A stretch of DNA of 64,000 bases from Octopus vulgaris (taxonomy: Eukaryota). Of the stretch, positions 2,838-64,000 are shown in pieces. The stretch covers positions 30,070,001 to 30,134,000 of the forward strand of contig OX597814.1 in NCBI GenBank assembly GCA_951406725.2, in the 5' to 3' direction. Within the stretch, counting starts at the first letter, position 1. Every line of letters begins with the position of its first letter. The notes under the pieces were generated by a model. It saw nothing but the letters and a program-made list of their open reading frames with translations, ran no database searches and was not told where the DNA came from. The position numbers were made by a program, and so were the translations under genes.

Positions 2838-3123
2838 ATCTGTTGCAATATTTTCTGTATCTGCCACTCTGATGATTGCAGTCTTAGGTAATAACCTATT
2901 TCCTTAATTCATGTGCGAAATGGATTGGTAAGATGGGCTATAATGAATATTTTATACTATAATTTATATATATATATATATACACACACAGACACATACT
3001 TATGTTTGTATGTGTATGTATATATATATATATATGTGTGTGTTCAGCAAAATTTAGATTCAGATGAATATGGTGCAGCATGAAACAATTGTACTACATT
3101 ACCTTGGATATCCTTGTTGCTTA

Positions 3124-3177
<54 letters not shown>

Positions 3178-3226
3178 ATCATACATATATATATAGTTAT
3201 AAGTGTGTGTGTGAGTGTATGTGTAA

Positions 3227-3263
<37 letters not shown>

Positions 3264-3666
3264 TGTGTGTTCAAACACTTGTCACTGGCCACTCTCAGTT
3301 ATTTCTCTTGTCTCATATTTTTAAGAATTAAGCAATTTACATAGACCATAAATATGTCCTACTGTTTTTTTCTATGTACAAGTCCCTTGACTACTGAAGA
3401 TAAAATTGGCTGATGATGCCTATTGATGCAGAAACACATGGCCACAACTGTCCTTTTCTCCAATGACATGTCATTCTTGAGGAAATTCTTGATTCTTGAG
3501 ATTATCTCCCCTTTTCATCTGGAGCTGGTTTTAATTACCATTTTAAAATTATGATACATTCTCAAGAGGTGGAAATAATTTCAAGAAATCAAAAATTTAC
3601 AATGTATGGTATTTGATATATATGTATTTGTGTGTGTATGTGTGTGTGTGTGTGTGTGTGTACATA

Positions 3667-3715
<49 letters not shown>

Positions 3716-3730
3716 CGATATATATTTAGG

Positions 3731-3779
<49 letters not shown>

Positions 3780-3867
3780 ATGTATATCCCCCTCTGTTCG
3801 GCATTCGCCATAATAGATCGCTTGCCACTACACATTTTTATTTTCTCTTCTTGTTTCTTTCTGTGTT

Positions 3868-3905
3868 CCTTTCTGTGGAAGAGCATAGGCTTGAAACATT
3901 AAAGA
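3868..3905 (+). ncRNA. Degenerate minimal hammerhead-ribozyme-like motif (Penelope-like terminal repeat)
   Basis: cttt-CTGTGGA-a-gagc atag gctt-GAAA-catt-aaag: helix I cttt/aaag, helix II gagc/gctt. Same family as 63714-63751. Confidence 0.5.
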
Positions 3906-3996
3906 CTTTTTCACTTCTTGAGCATTAAACTAATACATCTGTTTGTTGTCTACACCATCTGTCTTTGTCTTTTGTTTTTTTTTTGTGAATTCTCCC

Positions 3997-4047
<51 letters not shown>

Positions 4048-6140
4048 TTATCATCATCTTTTTACATCAGCCTTTCATGCTGGCTTGAGATGGACGAGTC
4101 AGTTCTTAGTGGTAGTACAATTCCCTTAGCCTAGTGTTCATAAGTGTCATTTAGCTTGCTTTCTATGACTGGATACCCTTCCTATTGTCAACCACTTTAC
4201 AGAGTGTACTAGGTATCTTTTCTTATGTTACCAAAACAAGAGATTTTGAACTAAGGGACTTCATAATCTTATGTATGTTTTGCATATTTTCCAACTGGTT
4301 TTTAGTGTGTACTTGGTACATTTGTCACACTATCACTCAAGAGACTGTCTCATTCACCAGTCACTCTTGGTGGTGTGTAATTTGTTGGCTTTCCATTATG
4401 ACAGCAATACAAGAAGAAAGTCATGCCTTGTACATAGGGAAAGGTAGAGAGTATTCAGTGAGCTAAGACATGTTGGCCAAAGAGGGGAAATAGGAGATAC
4501 AATAATGCCAGCAGTGATGCTAGAAGTGGGGGTAAGGGGAACAAGTGTTTAAGTATAGAGTCAACTCAATAATCTTGGGTCAGTAAATTTGCTCAAATTA
4601 CCAAAGAGGGGAGTTATGATATCAGAAGGACTTGTATGCCTGGCTGAATGATGGAATAGTGGTATGATGTAAGTGGCCGGGTTGTTCAAGGAGGAGTTGT
4701 GTAGGGAGTTATTAGGAATAGGTGAACAAAAATAAGAGTGAGTGATGGAATAAGATAAGGATATGTGATGGGTGGCAAAAACAAGTAGCCCTGAGGAAAG
4801 GAGAAAGTAATGAGGGTGAGAACGATAGCTAATCACAGAGGACCGTAGTTTGAGTGTATTGTGTACAGGTTGAGAGTGGCCCATAACAATCTCTTTTATG
4901 TAGACCTAGTGGAGGGATGAGGTTGGATCAGTGCAGTTTCTTATACATTGATTTATTGAAGGATAGTGAGGGTGTTCAAAAGATGTAAGATATAAGCATG
5001 TATGTGTACAAACACACACACACACACGCACGCACAATATAGTGCATGGTGATCAAGGATGGGTCATCAATGACAAATATGAGTGGAGAAGATGATGGTA
5101 AGAATGTTGATCTCCTTGTCATCTGTTCTGTGAAGCTCAGCATCCTAAGATCAGTCTTCAACATTTCATCCCATATATTCCTGGGTCCCTCTTCCACAGA
5201 TTCCATCTACTATAACAAATCACCTTTCTTTATAGAGCTGTCCCTCATCCATAAGTACCATATGCCCCATTTCAATGCAGTATTTTCTGTTGAACACCAT
5301 ATCTGACACCTCTTATGCTCATTTTGTTTTCTTTCAACACATTTATACTCTGTCATTCATTACATGAACATTACATATCCATTGGTACAAGCTATTTTAA
5401 TTTCTTTCTTGTCTTCGCTGGTTCTCTGCATTCAGATCTCATGTCTCACTACCAAATAAGCATTGCAGTTCTTTAAATGTATATCAGCATGATTTAACAT
5501 CTATTTTCCATGCTGGCATGGGTTAGATGGTTCAACAGGATCCATCAAATCAGAGGTCTGTGTAGTGCTCCAATGTCTGCTTTGGCATGGTTTCTACAGC
5601 CGTATGCCCTTCCAAATACAAATCACTTTATAGAGTGAATTGGGTGCTTTTCTTTTCATGGCACCGCCACCACCACCACCACCACTGATGTCACCATGTA
5701 ACATGCAAGATTAAGGCGCCCCTTGACTGAGTGGTTGTGGGGGTAAGGAGGGAAGCAGCTTTAACGCTAAGTATTGAGCTGGTAAAGCATGGAAGAAGGG
5801 ACAGGAACAAGATTCATACTGTAGAGGAGAAATATGGCTACTTCACATTATATAGGAGTGCGTGATAGTAATTGGAGTAGAACTGGAAAGGGAGTTAAAG
5901 ATGGTGGTATTGATGTGTTAGAATGTGCCTTCAAGTTATAAGAAGGGGAGTGGAAGATTGGGGGACAGAGGATTAAGAATAGTGGGTCGGTAAAAATAGA
6001 GGTTGTAAGAGTGTATGAGTAAAGTGAAAAATATTGTGACATAGCTTCGGCATGAATGTATATTTATTATTTATCACATCATATAAATATATGCATAGAT
6101 ATCTCACGTCATGCCTATCACGTATAATATACACATAGTA

Positions 6141-28200: not shown

Positions 28201-29993
28201 TCAATAATATATATGTCTAACCTCTTCTAACATGGAAAAACACAGATGTAAAATCAAATGAAATTAAAAGTGTACAGAGCAGCATTGTATATCAACTCTA
28301 GAAGGAAGTAACAGAAAAAAATTATCAAACAACAACAATATTGGTAATAATGATAACACTAATAATTCTTACCTCCATAACCAGTGCAACATGCGTAAAT
28401 AACCCATCCAACACACAGGCCCCATACACTGCGATTGGCTGTTGTATAGAATGATGCTGTATCTTGAGTCATTGCGTACCCATTATTGAGATTGTATAAG
28501 CCATAGAGAATGGAAACGGCAGATATTGTAGCCATCATCCATAGAACTGCACAAACATACTGCAAAAAAGTCAAATATATATATATATATATATATATAC
28601 ATACACACACATAAATGAGTGAAAAAAATGAATGAAAGCAGCTGTCAACACATTTGGTTAGCGTTACATAAATTTTTAATAATTTAAAAGAAATTCTCTC
28701 CACTCTGGCTCTGAATATCTGATGCGATGGACCTGTCTTATGTCCACAATTAAGTAAAACTGTTATTAACTATATGTATGAATGTATGTGTTTGTGTATA
28801 CATACATACATACATACATACATACATTAGTATCAAACTAATACACCTACTTGTTTATACACCTGTCTTCGTCTTTTGTTTTTCTGTAAATTAGGGAGTG
28901 TAAATGTGCACCCACGTAAAAAGCACCCACTACACTCACGGAGTGGTTGGCGTTAGGAAGGGCATCCAGCTGTAGAAACATTGCCAGATCTGACTGGGCC
29001 TGATGAAGCCTTCCAGCTTCACAGACCCCAGTTGAACCGTCCAACCCATGCTAGCATGGAAAACGGACGCTAATGATGATGATGATGATGATGATAGGGA
29101 GTATAGCTCCAAACTTACAGGAAAAATTCAATTTAGTATTAAATCAAATTTCACAGTATAAATATATAAAATACATATGAATATATATCATCATGATCAT
29201 CATTTAACGTCCGTTTTCCATGCTAGCATGGGTTGGACGGTACAACCGGGGTCCGGTAAGCCATGGAGGCTGCAGCAGGCTCTAGTCTGATTTGGCAGTG
29301 TTTCTACAGCTGGATGTCCTTCCTAACGCCAACCACTCCGTGAGTGTAGCGGGTGTTTTTTACGTGCCACTGGCACAGGAGCCAGAGCAGGCTGGCAAAC
29401 GGCCACGATCGGTTGGTCTTTTTACGTGTCACCGACACGGACGCCAGTCGGGCGACGCTAGTAACTGCCACGCTTGAACGGTGCTGATGAACTTGATTAA
29501 TTATAGTTATATTATTTGCTATTTATGTATTGGTTTATGTCTATCACTGTTTGAGTTGCATAATAGTGGTTTTATCTCTAATTCATATTTTATATATATC
29601 TTTATATATAAAAGTGAAGTTGTGTGTCTGTCTCCTACGATTTAGATTCCTAACTACTCCCACATTTTGCGGTGCAGTTTAACCAAATTAGGTTATAGTC
29701 GTGATTCAGATTGAGCCCTTCTGGGTATTAGCGTGCGTCTACAATGAGTCTACGATTTAAAAGAAAAATTACCATCATTTTTTTTCCCATTTTAATACAT
29801 TTTTTCGCTATTATATAAGGGAAGTAACTCTCTAAAAATGTCTACGATGAGTCTACGATTTTAAAAAAAAATTTATCATAATTTTTTTTCCATTTTTAAT
29901 GCATTTTTTTGCTATTTTTTGGCTATAACTCTCTAAAAATGCTTATATAGTTATTTCCCTTACAAACCCGAGCAACGCTGGGCGATACTGCTA

Positions 29994-31605: not shown

Positions 31606-34600
31606 CGTATGTATATAAGTTAGTTGGTTTCCCTTTTTCTATGCTCATCTTCTTTCTTTATTCTTCACTCTGTTTCAGATTGGTTTTATTACCAAATATA
31701 AATATTTATGCATATCAATGGCAATACCATACAACTTTGGGAACAGAAGCAGTTGTTAGATGGGATGCAGTCTATTTGCACTGAATTAATGAATAATAAT
31801 TGATGTAAGTCAATTGTTGTTCATCAGTACTTCTCCGTTTTCTGTTTTCTTTAGATTTTATAAATGTATATATATATATAAAATTTGTGAAAATGCAGGC
31901 TGGAAAGCAGAACATTTCCCAATTGAAGTTGGATGTATAGGATTCGTTGGATACAGTGTGAGGCAACTGTTGTTATTGTTAGGTAAACACCACCATGAAC
32001 AACATCCAAACTACAGTAGAAAAAATTAGCTACTGGATTTGGTTAAAAAGAGATGATGAGCAATGGCTAGAAGATTATTGAGCTACATTTGATAACCAAT
32101 TGATCTAGCAAGCAGGGCTTCATGTTAGTGAGGGTGGCAAGGACAATGATACCTATTTCTTTACTACCCACAAGGGGCTAAACAAAGAGGGGACAAACAA
32201 GGACAGACATAGGTATTAAGTTGATTACATCGACCCCAGTGCGTAACTGGTACTTAATTTATCGACCCCGAAAGGATGAAAGGCAAAGTTGACCTCGGCG
32301 GAATTCGAACTCACAACGTAACGCAGACGAAATACCGCTAAGCATTTCGCCCGGCGTGCTAACGTTTCTGCCAGCTTGCCGCCAAGGACAATGATACCAT
32401 CGAGTGGTAAGCTCCAAAATGGTACACATTCTCTCCTGATGACCCCATACACTTGCTGGTTTCTGGTATGCATAGCTTTCAACTGGTAGCACTTACATGT
32501 GCAAGTTGCTTGCCGCTGATAGTCTGTAACAAGGGTTCTCGACCATTTTTTATCTATGGACCCCTTTGGTTACAATTTTATTCTGGTGGATCCCCATAGC
32601 CATTTGATGCTTAAAAACTAATTTTATAGATACATTTTCCAAAATTGCTATTTTGTTTTTGCACACATTAACTTGTGTTGGTTAAACTATGTAAAATGTT
32701 AGAGAAAGAAACCTAACTGTTTCTTGCAATACATACCAATACATACATCTAAAGCCAAAGTTTTTAGGAGGCCATAAATACTACTGTAGATCCATAATTT
32801 ACTATTTTGTTGCATGGACCCTCAAAACTTTATATGGTCCCTCAGGGGCCATGTGAACCCTGGTTGAAAACCCCTAGTCTGTACAAAGAGTAGCGTAACA
32901 CTTACACGATTCATCCTCATTTTGCATTTATTTTTGTATAGAAGATAGCCAACGAGAATTCCAATGAGATATGGCCCGATTCTGATGTATGGTTTGACAT
33001 AAATATCTGTGAAGTACTTTTGGCTGATGTCACTGAAATAGATATATGCACATATTGACTAAAAATTCAGTAATATTTTGAATATATATATAAATATACA
33101 TAGCTAATCCAAACATGAAAACACGAAGAGAAAACACAACAACGCGTGGACGTGGAACAAATATAGTATTATTGGACGCTCAGGAAGAAAGGGAAGAAGG
33201 AGGGTTTAATGTTTCGAGTGGAGCTCTTCGTCAGAAACATAGGAAAAGGAAAGATCCAGAGAAGGGAAGACGGAGGAAACAAAATTGCCAACAGTACACA
33301 TGCAGTCATGGAATTTAATGCAGGTGTAATTCAAATATCCATCATTTTCTGTTAAAATATCTTATTAATGAGTTTCATTTTTTCACTTCCCTGAAGAGAT
33401 TACATTGTTTTATACCACTTTATTCTTTTGGAATAATATCAGTGATATCTTCGAAATGTGTTGGAAGTAAAAGTATTTGAATTACACCTGCGTTAAACTC
33501 CATTTATTTATTTATATATTTTACAAAATATTTCACGTAACCTGAAGTTTCTACCTTTAAAAACAAAGAGTTACAACCTCTTTACTTGTGTGGTTTTTTG
33601 CTACCCTGGTCACTATTTATCTATTTTTTCTGTGTAAATTGTTAACAAGGGGAAAATACACACATCTATATATATATATATATATATGTGTGTGTATATG
33701 AATATTATTTTTTAGGGAATAAAAATTCCAACATAACAGGGGTTCAAATTATTCTAAATTAAAAAATATATATATATATATATACACATATATACAAACA
33801 TATGCACACATACAGTTATGTATATACTAGATAGCATGAAAAGGTTCCCAGACTAGTTCTGTAGTATGCTAACAGATGGCAGCACTTGGTTGTGTGCACA
33901 GCAAAAGCTAGCAGTGACCTTCAGGTGGCAGTGTGCCATGTGATATTGCTGTGTTTACTTTGCAAGCTGTGAAATTTGTGTTTTTGTGATCAAGTGTGTT
34001 TCTTTATTACCCACTAGGGGCTAAACATAGACGGGACAAACAAGGACAGACAAATGGATTAAGTTGATTACATCGATCCCAATGCTAAAACTGGTACTTA
34101 ATTTATCGACCCCAAAAGGATGAAAGGCAAAGTCGACCTCGGCGGAACTTGAACTCAGAACATAACGGAAGACGAAATACAGCTACGCATTTCGCCCGGC
34201 ATGCTAACGTTTCTGCCAACTCGCCACCTTTTATGATCAAGTGTATGCTGTAGTCTGTGATTTTGTAAAGAGCCAATGTGAAATTTTGCCTTAAACTTTG
34301 AGCATGCTTTGGCAAGCTTATGGCCATGAGGCAATGGGTTGTATACAATATTTTGAGTGGTACAAGTGCTTCAAAAGCTGAAGAATGTCCCTGGAAGATG
34401 ATGAACTATCTGAAAGACTTGCCACAAGTGTCACTCCTGATAAATTGATATTGTGCATCGGGAATTTGTACCTCAGGGCCAGATTGTCAATAGGAAGTTT
34501 TACTGTGGCATTGTGAAGCATTTGAGGGAGAATATTTGGTGAAAGTGACCAGACTAGTGGAGCGCGAAGAATCCAGTTCTTCAAGATGACAATGCAGCTT

Positions 34601-46800: not shown

Positions 46801-48529
46801 GAAGTTAAAAACTTACTCCAAATTGGCATCCCAAAGATATAGGTGTGACCTAATATGACCCAGGTCATGCTGAGGAATCGAATGCCATGTATACAGGTCA
46901 ATGTACCATCTGGCTGATTTGTACTTAGCAACTTTTTAGCATTCTTATAAACAGAGAATGTAAGGAGAAATTTTGATACAGCATCTGCAAAACAAAAAAA
47001 TATATTTGTTAGTGAAGAGAATTAAATAAGGAGAGCGTGATTTAGTGAATATGTATAATGTTATAGGTACAGGTGTGGCTGTGTGGTAAGAAGCTTGCTT
47101 CCCAACCAAACAAACTCTCTCAACAATAACTTACTAACAAGCCACACCTTACATACTTTCCCCCTATCCTCCTCTATCAAACTTCTACATCTATTTCCCT
47201 GGCCTTGGTAAACATCTCATACATCTCAACTTGATAAACATCTCATCATATATACAGGTGTTGGACAAAATAATGGAAACATCTCGCATCATAATTTTGA
47301 AATATCTATAAAACCATCAAAAGCTTGTTTATTTTGTCAAAAGTGTCTTTAATTTTATGCTTTTTGATTTATTATCAGCGTTGCTTAATAAGTTTTGCTA
47401 AAATTGCTGTTTCTTTTCAGATATTGTCAGAAAAAGGTAATTAAAATTCATTAAAATGACAGATCTATTGGACTTGCAAAGAGGTCAAATTGCTGGTGCT
47501 AGTATGACAGGTGTTAGCGTAATGAAAACATTTCAAATGTTTGGTGTATCAAGAAGTACTGTTTTGAAAGTAATGATAGCCTTTGAGAAAGAGGGAAAAA
47601 CCTCCTTGTTGAAGCAAAACTCTGGAAGAAAACCAAAATTTTCACATAGGGACTGTCTGACTCTTATGTGAATTGTTAGAAAGGATCACATAAGTACAGC
47701 TCCCAAAATTACTGCAGAGCTTAATGACCACCTTGAGAACCCAGTTTCCAGAAAAACTGTTTGCCGGGAGCTGCATGAAGCCAGTCTTCACGGGACGGCT
47801 GCAATGAGAGAACCACTACTTTTAAAAACAAATGTTGCAAAGCATTTAGAGTGCAGTAAAAATCTACAGAATTGGTCCCTAGAGCAGTGGAAGAATGTTA
47901 TCTTCTCGGATGAGTCATCCTTTACCTTATTTCCAACTACTGGTCAAGTATACATGTGGAGACAGCCAAAAGAATTATCTGACCCAGACTTCCTTCTTCC
48001 AACTGTTAAACATGGAGGAAGATCTGTGATGATCTGGGGGAGCTATATCTTGGAAATCCGCTGGCCCAATAGTTTCCCTTCATGGCAGAATTAATAGTCA
48101 AGACTATTTAAGCATTTTATCTGATCAAATTCATCCTATGATTGCAGAACTGTTTCTGGAGGGAAATGCAATTTTTCAGGATGATAATGCACCAATTTGC
48201 ACAGCTAAAGTTGCTGCTGAATGGCACGATGAACAATCTAGTGGAGTTAAACATCTTATCTAGCCACCACAGTCCCCAGATATCAAAATTATCGAACATT
48301 TATGATGCATTTTAGAAGAACAAATAAGGGGTCCCCCACTATCATCACTACAAGAACTAGAGACTGTTTTAGCTGAAGAATGGATAAAAATTCCTTTGGA
48401 AACAATTCAAACTTTGTACGATTCCTTACCTCATAGAATTCAAGCTGTAATTACCGCCAAAGGCGGACCTACCCAATATCAAAATAAATTTGTTTGAAAT
48501 TTTAAGGTGTTTTTCATTATTTTGTCCAA

Positions 48530-53155: not shown

Positions 53156-56100
53156 GTGTGTGCGTGTGTGCGTGTGTGCGTGTGCGTGTGTGTGTGTGTG
53201 TGTGTTTTTTCTTCTGTTGGTACCTCCACTTCCTTCTGCCTGACAATGGGTGTTGGCTTGTGCATGTGTCTGAAACTTAGCAGTTCAGCAAAAATGACCA
53301 ATAGAATAAGTAGCAGGATTAAAGAAAACAAGTACCAGAATAAATTTGCTTGATGAAAACTCTTTAAGGCAGTGCTTCAGGATGGCCACAGTCCAATGAT
53401 TGAAACAACTGGAAAAAGTATAAGAAAATAAGATAATGTTTTTACCTAATTCCTCATCACTTTTTGATGGAGTTTTGGTACCATTGCAGTTAACATGAGC
53501 CTCTTTTTCTTTCAATGAAACGTCTTGTGTGCTAGTTGGAAGAGAATTATTGATTCCATTCTGAGCAGCAGCATTTGAAGAGGACTTCCCAGATTGTAAA
53601 AGGACATCATATAATGTCCCCAGAAATATGTGCAGTAAGAAAATTGAGATGATAATCCTATAATAAAGAAGAAAATAATAATAATAATCCTTTCTATTAT
53701 AAGTACAAGGCTTGAAATTTTGGCGGGGAGGGGCCAAGTCAACTACATCAATCCCAGTGTTTCACTGGTATTTAATTTATAGATTCCAAAGGATAAAAGG
53801 CAAAGTTGACCTTGGCAGAATATGAGCCTGGAATGTTGTTGCTGAATGGCACGAGGAAGATTCTAGTGAAGTTGAACATCTTATCTTGCCATCACAGTCC
53901 CCAGATATCAAAATTATCGAACATTTATGATGCATTTTAGAAAAACAAATAAGGGGTCGATATCCCCCACTATCATCACTACAAGGACTGGAGACCGTTT
54001 TAGCTGAAGAATGGATAAAAATTCCTTTGGAAACAATTCAAACTTTGTACGAGTCCATACCTTGTAGAATCCAAGCTGAAATTATTGCCAAAGGCTGTCC
54101 TACACCATCATCATCATCATCATCCTCGTTTAATGTCCGCTTTCCATGCTAGCATGGGTTGGACGATTTTAACTGAGGGCTGATGAACCAGATGGCTGCA
54201 CCAGGCTCCAATTTTGATCTGGCAGAGTTTCTACAGCTTGATGCCCTTCCTAACGCCAATTAAAATAAATTTGTTTGAAATTTTAAGGTGTTTCTATTAT
54301 TTTGTCCAACCACTGTATATATGTGTGTGTGTGTGTGTGTGTGTGAGTATTTTTGCTTCTATATGTCTTCTTATTGGTACCACTTGGGCTACAGTGAAGT
54401 TTGTTTATGACCCACATAAATAATATGTCCTGGAGTGCAGCAGTTTGACATGCAAAAGACGAGTGGAAGGAAGTACTTTACTTGCAATCATGTAAGGGTT
54501 GGTGTAAAGAAGGACATCCAGTCATAGAATACTGACTTAAAAGATCTCACCCAAACCATGCCAACACTGGAACCCCCCCCCCCCATCACCACTAAAAACA
54601 GATCTAAAAATTATGATCATGGTGGCGATGGTGTTGTTGTTGCTGTTGGTGGTGGTGATGATTCACTAAACTACAAATTGCATCAAGAGTAACTCCTACA
54701 TCAACAGACTAAAATATCCTCCTCCTATCACCATTATCATCTTCCCCTCCTCCTCCTCACTGAATTTTTACATTTGGCCAGTGAAATTTTTTCTCTCCTT
54801 TTTTCATCTCACAATGCGATCTGTTACATTTGGCTTTCATAAATGAATGATAATGTTTAGAAACAAATACAGCCTGTACTTTAAGCTGGACTTTTTTTAT
54901 ATATGTTTTACTTGAAATAATATTATTTCCCATTTGTTTCAACATTTGGTGTGCTATTTTAACTAATATATTTAACCTAATTTCCTTTGTGAAACACTTG
55001 GCAGGATATGAATTAATTTTTAATACAATATTTTTTATTAATTTTTAGTTTTTTAGTATCTTTAACAGAAAAAATATATTATTGATTATTTTTTTTTCCC
55101 ATTTATCTAACTATTTGTTTTTAATTAATGTTTTTCTTCAAATTATAGCTGTAATCTATTATTGAAGGAATATATGAAAAACCATTCTTAATTTCAATGT
55201 TTGATAAGCATGCTTAGTTTATCAGGCAGGAAAATTACTACCATCCTGCTTTGATAGAATTAGATGAATTCTTGAAGATTAATTCTTTGTGATGTCTGAT
55301 GTGTAGGTGGAAAATTGTGCAAGAACAGGAAAACTAGAAATTCATTGAATTAAAGAAAAATGAAGATTAAGTGTGGGTAGGATAGGGGAAATCATGTCAT
55401 ATTCTCAGAGAGGGATGGCAGGGGAAATGTAAAACAGCTGAGAAAAAAAAACAAAACAAATGACACAAACACGACTGGTAAAACACATGCATCAAAACAC
55501 ACACCTCCCATTATCATATGGATCTAGTTCCAGTTACCATTTTGTGAATTGTGACACATCTTCTAGAGGCAAAGATAATTTTGATAAATCATCAATTCAT
55601 GTAGTATGGTATTTAATATACCTATATTTTGTCTATGTGTGAAGGCACGTGGCTTAATGGTTAGGGGCATTCGACTCATGATCGTAAGGTTGTGAGTTCA
55701 ATTCCAGGCGACGCGTTGTATCATTGAGCAGGACACTTTATTTCACGTTGCTCCACTCCAATCAGCTGGCAAAAATGAGTAGTACCTGTATTTCAAAAGG
55801 GCCAGCCTTGTCACACCTTGTGTCATCCAGAATCTCCCTGAGAACTACGTTAAGGGTACACGTGTTTGTGGAGTGCTCAGCCACTTACACGTTAATTTCA
55901 CGAGCAAGCTGTTCCGTTGATCGTATCAGCTGGGACCCTTGTCGTTGCAACCGATGGAGTGCTCCTATCCTATGTATGTATGTATGTATGTATGTGAGAT
56001 CGCGTGGCTTAGTGGTTAGGGCATTCGGCTCATGATCGTAAGGTAGTGAGTTCAATTCCTGGCGGCACATTGTGTCCTTGAGCAAGACACTTTATTTCAC

Positions 56101-63474: not shown

Positions 63475-63713
63475 ATTGAAATATTTATCTTAGTGAGGTT
63501 TAGCATATATATATATATATATATATATACAAATATACATATATATATATATATACAAATATATATACATACATATATATATATCTACAAATATATATAC
63601 ATACATATATATATAATGGGAAGCTTTATGAAAATAGACAAAAGACGAAGGCAGGTGGAAAACAAACGAACAATTGTATTAGTATGGCGCTCAGGAAATA
63701 TAAATAAAACAAG

Positions 63714-63751
63714 TCTTTAACGTTTCGAGCCTACGCTCTTCAACAGAAAGA
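63714..63751 (-). ncRNA. Minimal hammerhead-like motif with CUGUUGA core
   Basis: tcttt-CTGTTGA-a-gagc gtag gctc-GAAA-cg-TT-aaaga: perfect helices I and II, ACGT palindromic helix III. Confidence 0.6.
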
Positions 63752-64000
63752 TACACAGAGAGAAAAAAAACACAGAAAGAAGGAGAGAAAAAAATGCGTG
63801 CAGTAGCTAACGAATCAACATGGCGATCTGATTTCGGCCAGAGGTCAAAGATCAAACATGAGACGCGAGAGCGAAATAAGGGGAGATAATAGGGTTGATA
63901 ATAGGGTTGAAGGACCAGCTAATAGTGCGTAGGAGGGGTCTGGACGTGTGTATGTATAGGGTTGGTGTATGTATTAGTATGTATAAGGGTGTGTGTGTGT

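What the first reader, a model, noticed from the sequence alone, without database searches (positions are those of the whole stretch)
3868..3905. Recurring non-canonical CUGUNGA core (U at conserved position A6)
Seen: the copies at 3868 (+, CUGUGGA) and 63714 (-, CUGUUGA) are 60 kb apart with homologous flanks (taatac..tgtt...cacc..tc(t)tcgtcttttg). Both carry U where hammerheads normally have the invariant A6, while the related motif at 33204 has canonical CUGACGA. Inference: the U6 variant may be the family consensus. That would mean either a tolerated variant catalytic core or a family that kept amplifying with a dead ribozyme.
Basis: partly seen in the sequence, partly recalled or inferred. 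Interest (0 to 1): 0.7.

Follow-up and report, generated by a model that had tools for sequence, protein, structure and literature searches.

The report
U6-core hammerhead in young Penelope retroelements
Tens of thousands of copies of a recently spreading jumping-gene family in this animal genome carry a small self-cutting-RNA (hammerhead) motif in which a normally fixed core letter is U instead of A, and the rest of the motif has been preserved as if it still works, so it is likely a slowed rather than dead cutter, which has not been tested.

Summary
Observation confirmed. Both copies are 3' ends of a Neptune/Nematis-type Penelope-like element carrying a minimal type I hammerhead. U6 is the lineage consensus: 5,021 of 5,132 exact-core matches (A6: 34), 87 of 88 copies found without using the core, and both repeats of intact 4.5-kb RT+endonuclease tandem units. 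A further 15,804 copies have a GUA/GUC cut site (93 of 100 listed U6). Across flank-defined subfamilies only N7 (four states) and H17 (C, A, U; G only as scattered mutants) change, while 38-51 of 87 flank columns do, so a neutrally decaying dead ribozyme is unlikely. Cutting is not shown: published A6 mutants are slow, at least 79 of 90 tandem insertions run through an uncut upstream motif, and stem II covariation was not above control. The copy at 33204 belongs to a sister A6 family, 8 of 12 sampled copies of which carry U4C. I found no natural U6 hammerhead in print, but the most relevant paper (Lunse 2017) was not held. The scan noted altered cores before on other DNA (this genome, possibly this family; A6C in a shark-like genome). 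New variant of a known kind.

The parts
3789..4001 (+). 5'-truncated 3' end of the element, older 'UG' subfamily, between (TA)n microsatellites
   Evidence: 85% over 217 nt to copy L010; flanks seen
3869..3904 (+). Minimal type I hammerhead, U6 core (C3 3873, U6 3876, H17 3900); decayed at three CpG-type positions
   Evidence: sequence; stems not predicted to form in this copy
63618..64000 (-). 3' end of a copy of the youngest subfamily; continues about 1.2 kb beyond the window into endonuclease-coding DNA
   Evidence: 94.8% to full unit L166; L047 1-1226 matches unit 3087-4123; EN frames in L047
63715..63750 (-). Intact minimal type I hammerhead, U6 core (C3 63746, U6 63743, N7 63742, H17 63719); stem I 4-5 bp, extra A after A9, stem II 4 bp with GUAG loop, ACGU palindrome in place of stem III
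   Evidence: sequence; stem II p 0.88, stem I p 0.61-0.73
33090..33308 (-). Copy of the sister family with canonical A6 and a 3-nt loop II (hammerhead 33204-33238)
   Evidence: 92% to L067; 4,309 A6-pattern matches, mostly this family in the 100 listed
28820..28900 (+). Short remnant of an old U6-lineage copy truncated downstream of the hammerhead (approximate ends)
   Evidence: flank profile hit, E 6e-13

Best explanation
The motif is the minimal type I hammerhead in the terminal repeat of a young Penelope-like retrotransposon lineage in which core position 6 is U, and it likely still cuts RNA slowly, as a predicted dimer. Shown: it lies about 100 nt before the element's 3' end, in both repeats of 4.5-kb tandem units with an open RT+GIY-YIG frame, and U6 is the majority state in every subfamily examined. 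Inferred: a read-through transcript brings two motifs together through the ACGU palindrome to build stem III; cleavage after GUH would release unit-length RNA that may be circularised; the endonuclease would nick (TA)n and prime reverse transcription at the TA-rich unit junction. U6 removes the purine of the U4-G5-A6 turn but leaves C3-G8, G5, G12 and A15.1-U16.1, so the rate would fall without the fold being lost; slow cutting would be tolerated, perhaps useful, because new master copies need more-than-unit templates.
For: Counts. Intact tandem units 96.8-99.4% identical, U6 in 14 of 14 motifs of 7 loci; 28 of 30 endonuclease-anchored loci have the motif downstream, all U6. Subfamily majorities differ only at N7 and H17: constrained columns variable 0-2 of 30 against 14-15 of 56 or 38-51 of 87 flank columns, Fisher p 0.008 to 3e-7. 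G17, which the NUH rule forbids (recalled), has 114 matches spread over all N7 states, against 5,021 U17 and 15,804 A/C17. In contigs of four coded organisms only N7 and H17 vary at 5% or more inside the core. A natural pyrimidine at 6 (A6C) cuts at low but detectable rate (PMC3088659 section 8; PMC7151607).
Against: No cleavage data. In a comprehensive mutant scan all single mutants of the CUGA turn had low activity (PMC9901934 passage); A6C cut one fast ribozyme about 1e5-fold slower at 0.3 mM Mg; minimal PLE hammerheads are already weak in vitro (PMC4209133). At least 79 of 90 tandem-junction insertions extend through an intact upstream motif and none starts exactly at the predicted cut. 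Compensatory stem II changes in U6 copies were not clearly more frequent than non-compensatory ones among 27 hits. Most loci were fetched with core patterns, so part of the invariance is ascertainment; flank variability is inflated by alignment slip in T-rich runs.
Confidence: 0.5

Rival explanations
1. The motif no longer cuts but is kept for its fold or sequence, as a dimerisation or RT/endonuclease-binding signal; U6 may even lock it as a rod-like hairpin by pairing U4-G5-U6 with A15.1-C-G.
For: Read-through of intact motifs in at least 79 of 90 tandem insertions; A6 mutants are slow; the sister family spread with a second turn mutation, U4C, in 8 of 12 sampled copies; U6-A15.1 pairing p 0.36-0.45 in the two UU groups; N7 and H17 would also be unpaired in such a hairpin; Naiad elements spread without canonical hammerheads (PMC8557442 passages).
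Against: The hairpin is weak or absent in the UA, UC and UG groups with more than one copy (p 0-0.09); catalytic G8 and G12 and the non-G cut site are kept in all subfamilies; read-through is also expected of a circular template.
Confidence: 0.35
2. U6 is fully compensated in its own context (GUAG loop, metal preference or protein help), so the ribozyme is as active as A6 relatives.
For: Mn restores A6C to about 0.3 per min; loop II is unchanged across subfamilies apart from CpG decay in a set I selected for it; no A6 revertant subfamily arose.
Against: No rescuing double mutant for the CUGA turn in PMC9901934; four invariant loop positions are expected by chance at the flank rate about one time in four or less.
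Confidence: 0.08
3. The ribozyme died when U6 arose and has hitch-hiked neutrally in a successful element.
For: Individual copies do decay neutrally (copy 1; table); no covariation shown inside the U6 lineage.
Against: Subfamily majorities up to 33% apart in flank (K=6) keep the core and both stems; changes concentrate at exactly N7 and H17.
Confidence: 0.07

Closest known systems
Minimal type I hammerheads in pseudo-LTRs of metazoan Penelope-like elements (Cervera and De la Pena 2014, PMC4209133; read parts 1-2 of 4, supplement file 2 by search only)
   Same: Position in both flanking repeats, short stem I, extra nucleotide after A9, G10.1-C11.1 pair, CG palindrome in place of stem III, U-rich upstream, mostly solitary truncated copies.
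   Different: Their consensus is CUGANGAH and the only core variant named in the parts read is U3-A8; 'CUGU' occurs in the supplement's alignment only in stems and flanks (3 passages). Here position 6 is U lineage-wide and stem II is 4 bp rather than 5-8.
A6C hammerhead of phage Bcep176 (PMC3088659 section 8 and passages; PMC7151607 parts 1-2 of 4)
   Same: Natural pyrimidine at core position 6.
   Different: C not U; one phage sequence with full helices, against tens of thousands of dimer-dependent copies in an animal retroelement; its activity was measured.
Neptune and Nematis clades of C-terminal EN+ Penelope-like elements (PMC8557442, passages)
   Same: RT followed by CX4CxxC linker and GIY-YIG endonuclease with CCHH, tandem units, inverted truncated partners, (TA)n targets.
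   Different: Clade not placed by a tree here; hammerheads of such elements are described as canonical.
Stem-III-reduced hammerheads of Penelope-like elements that cleave as dimers (Lunse, Weinberg, Breaker 2017, PMC5785218; only the reference line seen; paper not held)
   Same: By title and recall: reduced stem III, dimer cleavage, PLE association.
   Different: Unknown whether their alignments contain position-6 variants.

Membership tests
Minimal type I hammerhead of PLEs | Core CUGANGA ... GAAA ... UH | tested here: not met
   All core letters present except A6, which is U in 5,021 of 5,132
Minimal type I hammerhead of PLEs | Stem I closing the motif and stem II with G10.1-C11.1 and an extra base after A9 | tested here: met
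   Sequence; pair probabilities in copy 2; stem I fourth pair is C-G here and G-C in the sister family
Minimal type I hammerhead of PLEs | Palindromic 15/16 segment for dimer stem III | tested here: met
   ACGU is self-complementary; 6-mer duplex -3.5 kcal/mol; cofold MFE did not give the hammerhead dimer
Minimal type I hammerhead of PLEs | Located in both flanking repeats of a PLE | tested here: met
   7 of 7 tandem loci, L166-L172
Hammerhead ribozyme | Site-specific self-cleavage after NUH | not testable with these tools
   Indirect tests inconclusive
Hammerhead ribozyme | Covariation of stems within the U6 lineage | tested here: inconclusive
   27 double-change hits, compensatory not clearly above non-compensatory, no covaried subfamily
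Rfam hammerhead families | Covariance-model match | tested here: not met
   0 matches at E up to 10 over 63620-63860
C-terminal EN+ PLE, Neptune/Nematis type | Single frame with RT then GIY-YIG endonuclease | tested here: met
   1,082 aa from first Met in L166; RVT_1 E 1.4e-7; GIY-YIG E 0.0012, 19.5 bits, below the 22.6 cut-off
C-terminal EN+ PLE, Neptune/Nematis type | CX2-5CxxC linker and CCHH motif | tested here: met
   CX4CxxC before, and CxxC inside, the GIY-YIG motif, two later His, read from the frame; definition
C-terminal EN+ PLE, Neptune/Nematis type | RT tree placement | not tested
   No reference PLE proteins fetched

The most novel reading that the evidence does not exclude
A natural U6 hammerhead class in which the uridine turn is dispensable: two dominant Penelope lineages of one genome independently altered that turn (A6U; U4C) while keeping every catalytic base, because slow or protein-triggered cutting is what the element selects for, making the hammerhead a tuned switch between unit-length and more-than-unit templates.
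Probability: 0.25. Interest if true: 0.75.

Novelty: new variant of a known kind. Interest (0 to 1): 0.5.

Why it matters
What hammerheads do in Penelope-like elements is stated to be unclear (PMC8557442 passage). This lineage offers a natural test: an apparently active autonomous element, a dated series of subfamilies, and matched A6, U6 and U4C motifs in one genome. If U6 cuts, the hammerhead core consensus is too strict and descriptor searches miss whole families (Rfam finds nothing here). If it does not, the element conserves a hammerhead for something other than cleavage.

Tried and rejected
A6 as true consensus with decay: rejected. An A6 revertant or ancestral subfamily inside the lineage: 6 of 11 sampled CUGAUGA copies share old flanks, but that subfamily is 84 U, 10 C, 5 A, 1 G of 100 listed; rejected, though 5 A is somewhat high. 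Shifted register that would restore an A6 (U3-U4-G5-A6-A7-G8-A9): fails in UG, UA and UC subfamilies and leaves a 2-bp stem II; rejected. A downstream GAGCGUY motif as an intramolecular stem III partner: the youngest subfamily has GCC there and the sister family cannot form stem I with it; rejected by inspection. Pile-up of 5' ends at the cut: 5-6 of 34 distinct loci among 100 listed rows start at 0/+1, counted by eye, but other A/T-rich positions also have 3-4, so microhomology with (TA)n can explain it; inconclusive. Metagenome scan for U6 cores: 80 of 90 stretches given as loci, 2 of 80 had both stems of 3 bp or more; hits are selected for U6 by the pattern, so no family claim. Expression: no RNA holder listed; not tested further. 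Papers not held: Lunse 2017 and a recalled id for Nelson and Uhlenbeck 2008. The rate table for PMC9901934 was not read (supplement list only); file 1 of the PMC4209133 supplement was not searchable; both may bear on the A6U rate and on novelty.

Full report
Observation. Read with standard numbering they are minimal type I hammerheads: stem I, CUG-N6-N7-GA, an extra A, a 4-bp stem II, GAAA, CG, U, H17, stem I. Copies at 3873 (+) and 63746 (-) have U6; the copy at 33234 (-) has A6 and a 3-nt loop. The first copy is decayed at three CpG-type positions, the second is intact. Rfam has no match over the second copy at E up to 10; no hammerhead was among the 150 of 426 whole-window rows shown.

Is U6 the consensus? 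Yes. With positions 6 and 7 free, the 28-nt core ending in GUU has 5,132 exact matches and the reversed control 0; 5,021 have U6 and 34 A6. A looser pattern for cut sites GUA or GUC has 15,804 matches; of the 100 listed 93 are U6, 4 A, 2 C, 1 G. A6 with this family's stem II and GUA/GUC has 137 matches whose N7 letters and flanks are spread over the U6 subfamilies, as expected of mutations after insertion. Tests that do not use the core agree: 15 of 15 lineage copies with a motif in 784 kb (700 kb at fixed round coordinates, plus the window and its two neighbours), found by downstream flank only, have U6; 87 of 88 copies found by stem I flanks in random, endonuclease-anchored and junction-anchored loci have U6 and none A6 (this set is dominated by the youngest subfamily). 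About 16-17 flank hits in 700 kb extrapolate to very roughly 65,000 copies. Contigs of four runs from four coded organisms show variation of 5% or more inside the core only at N7 and H17, none at position 6.

Host element. Upstream of longer copies lies a GIY-YIG endonuclease frame. A search with it gave 17,396 candidates; the 150 scored were 99-100% identical without stops, many in frames over 1,000 codons. Seven loci picked for tandem hits or long frames each hold two U6 motifs about 4.5 kb apart; L166 has a 1,082-aa frame from the first Met with RT (Pfam RVT_1), a CX4CxxC linker and a GIY-YIG domain with CCHH (the Pfam GIY-YIG score is below its cut-off). Five other units are 96.8-99.4% identical to it. 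By the features in PMC8557442 (passages) this is a Neptune- or Nematis-type Penelope-like element; no tree was built. Copies end about 100 nt after the motif in (TA)n and are 5'-truncated; 162 exact unit junctions exist. Recent activity is inferred from identity and open frames. 'Octopus-like' comes from earlier scan notes and recall, not from a call of mine.

Selection. Clustering 193 copies on downstream flank alone (43 loci fetched for carrying A6 were screened and their A6 copies dropped) gives groups with mean divergence from their majority of 0.04 to 0.17. All have U6. N7 takes all four letters and H17 takes C, A and U; the other 30 core and stem columns vary in 2 (both in one degenerate group of 6), against 38-51 of 87 flank columns (Fisher p 1e-4 to 3e-7). 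On a conservative 56-column flank block the figures were 0-1 of 30 against 14-15 of 56 (p 0.008-0.0009; the single variable column there came from the A6-enriched sample). G17 has 114 matches across all N7 states, background level. N7 and H17 are the two positions free in the hammerhead consensus quoted in PMC7151607. Caveats: most loci came from core patterns; T-rich flanks misalign; columns are not independent events. Against a structural claim, stem II covariation inside the lineage was not shown: 27 double-change hits include about as many non-pairing as pairing changes and no covaried subfamily. Between lineages the fourth pair of stem I is C-G in U6 and G-C in A6 families.

Does it cut? 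Not shown. A natural A6C phage hammerhead cuts at under 0.1 per min (PMC3088659 section 8), 0.004 per min at 1 mM Mg and 0.31 at 1 mM Mn; the same change slowed another ribozyme from 0.3 to 3.6e-6 per min at 0.3 mM Mg (PMC7151607). All single mutants of the CUGA turn had low activity in a pairwise scan (PMC9901934 passage). Minimal PLE hammerheads are inactive as monomers and weak as dimers (PMC4209133). In the genome, at least 79 of 90 examined junction insertions (of 162) extend upstream through an intact motif, one starts 4 nt after the predicted cut and none exactly at it: templates were uncut or re-ligated, which fits both a slow cutter with circles and a dead one. Short copies starting at the cut are not clearly enriched. 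Folding suggests U6 can pair with A15.1 in UU groups (p 0.36-0.45) but little in other groups.

Sister family. The 33234 motif belongs to a family with A6 and a UCC loop (4,309 A6-pattern matches). In the core-blind sample 8 of its 12 copies have U4C, a change reported to lower activity in vitro yet permit viroid infectivity (PMC3088659 passage). So both large lineages altered the U4-G5-A6 turn and kept the rest; the role of the third-position purine in such turns is recalled, not read.

Mechanism. Best reading (0.5): a slow, dimer-dependent and perhaps protein-assisted cutter that processes read-through RNA, slow cleavage being compatible with the need for more-than-unit templates. Main rival (0.35): cleavage-dead but kept as a fold or binding signal. 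Full compensation (0.08) and neutral hitch-hiking (0.07) are less likely.

Novelty. Nine full-text searches listed no paper whose title, abstract start or term counts point to a natural A6U hammerhead or to this lineage. Read: PMC4209133 parts 1-2 and supplement search; PMC7151607 parts 1-2; PMC3088659 section 8 and passages; bioRxiv 10.64898/2026.07.22.740005 part 1; passages only of PMC8557442, PMC7229834, PMC9901934, PMC10085705, PMC12192606, PMC6155905, PMC3376415. Lunse 2017 was not held and could already contain U6. Earlier scan notes, unchecked by me, mention altered cores in this genome (one possibly this family) and A6C in a shark-like genome; searches by sequence and by the U6 words found nothing. 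Verdict: real, a new variant of a known kind, interest 0.5.

Noticed in passing
window 33090-33308 (-) family; L182, L196, L217, L220, L221, L231, L243, L245: The sister A6 family has a large U4C subfamily (CCGACGA), 8 of 12 copies in the core-blind sample.
   Followed up: partly
L385 (G000:C8:18599500-18604500): Array of 492-bp mini-units with five U6 motifs, joining the element's 5' region to its terminal repeat: a retrozyme-like deletion derivative.
   Followed up: partly
L468, L469, L474; L489, L507; L466, L472, L521 (metagenome contigs): Repeat-like sequences with CUGUNGA and 4-7 bp stem II; selected for U6 by the pattern, stem I weak or absent; L507 has an inverted arm with A6.
   Followed up: partly
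L114, L117, L118, L120, L123, L128, L134, L175: Old, unrelated hammerhead copies with G6 (CUGGUGA, CUGGCGA); probably single A>G changes of A6 families, not tested.
   Followed up: no
window 29012-29265: Long inverted repeat of a common dispersed element around an (ATG)n/(CAT)n centre; scores weakly as a miRNA hairpin.
   Followed up: no
window 48373-48407 and 54004-54038: Two copies of another repeat 5.6 kb apart that match the loose core pattern without stems.
   Followed up: no
L002/L261, C1:34405628-34405999, L273/L274: Inverted pairs of U6 motifs 140-350 nt apart on opposite strands, the usual inverted 5' partner of Penelope insertions.
   Followed up: no
L046 3752-5317: Frame ending in a helicase-like segment, possibly a Helitron fragment (label recalled).
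   Followed up: no
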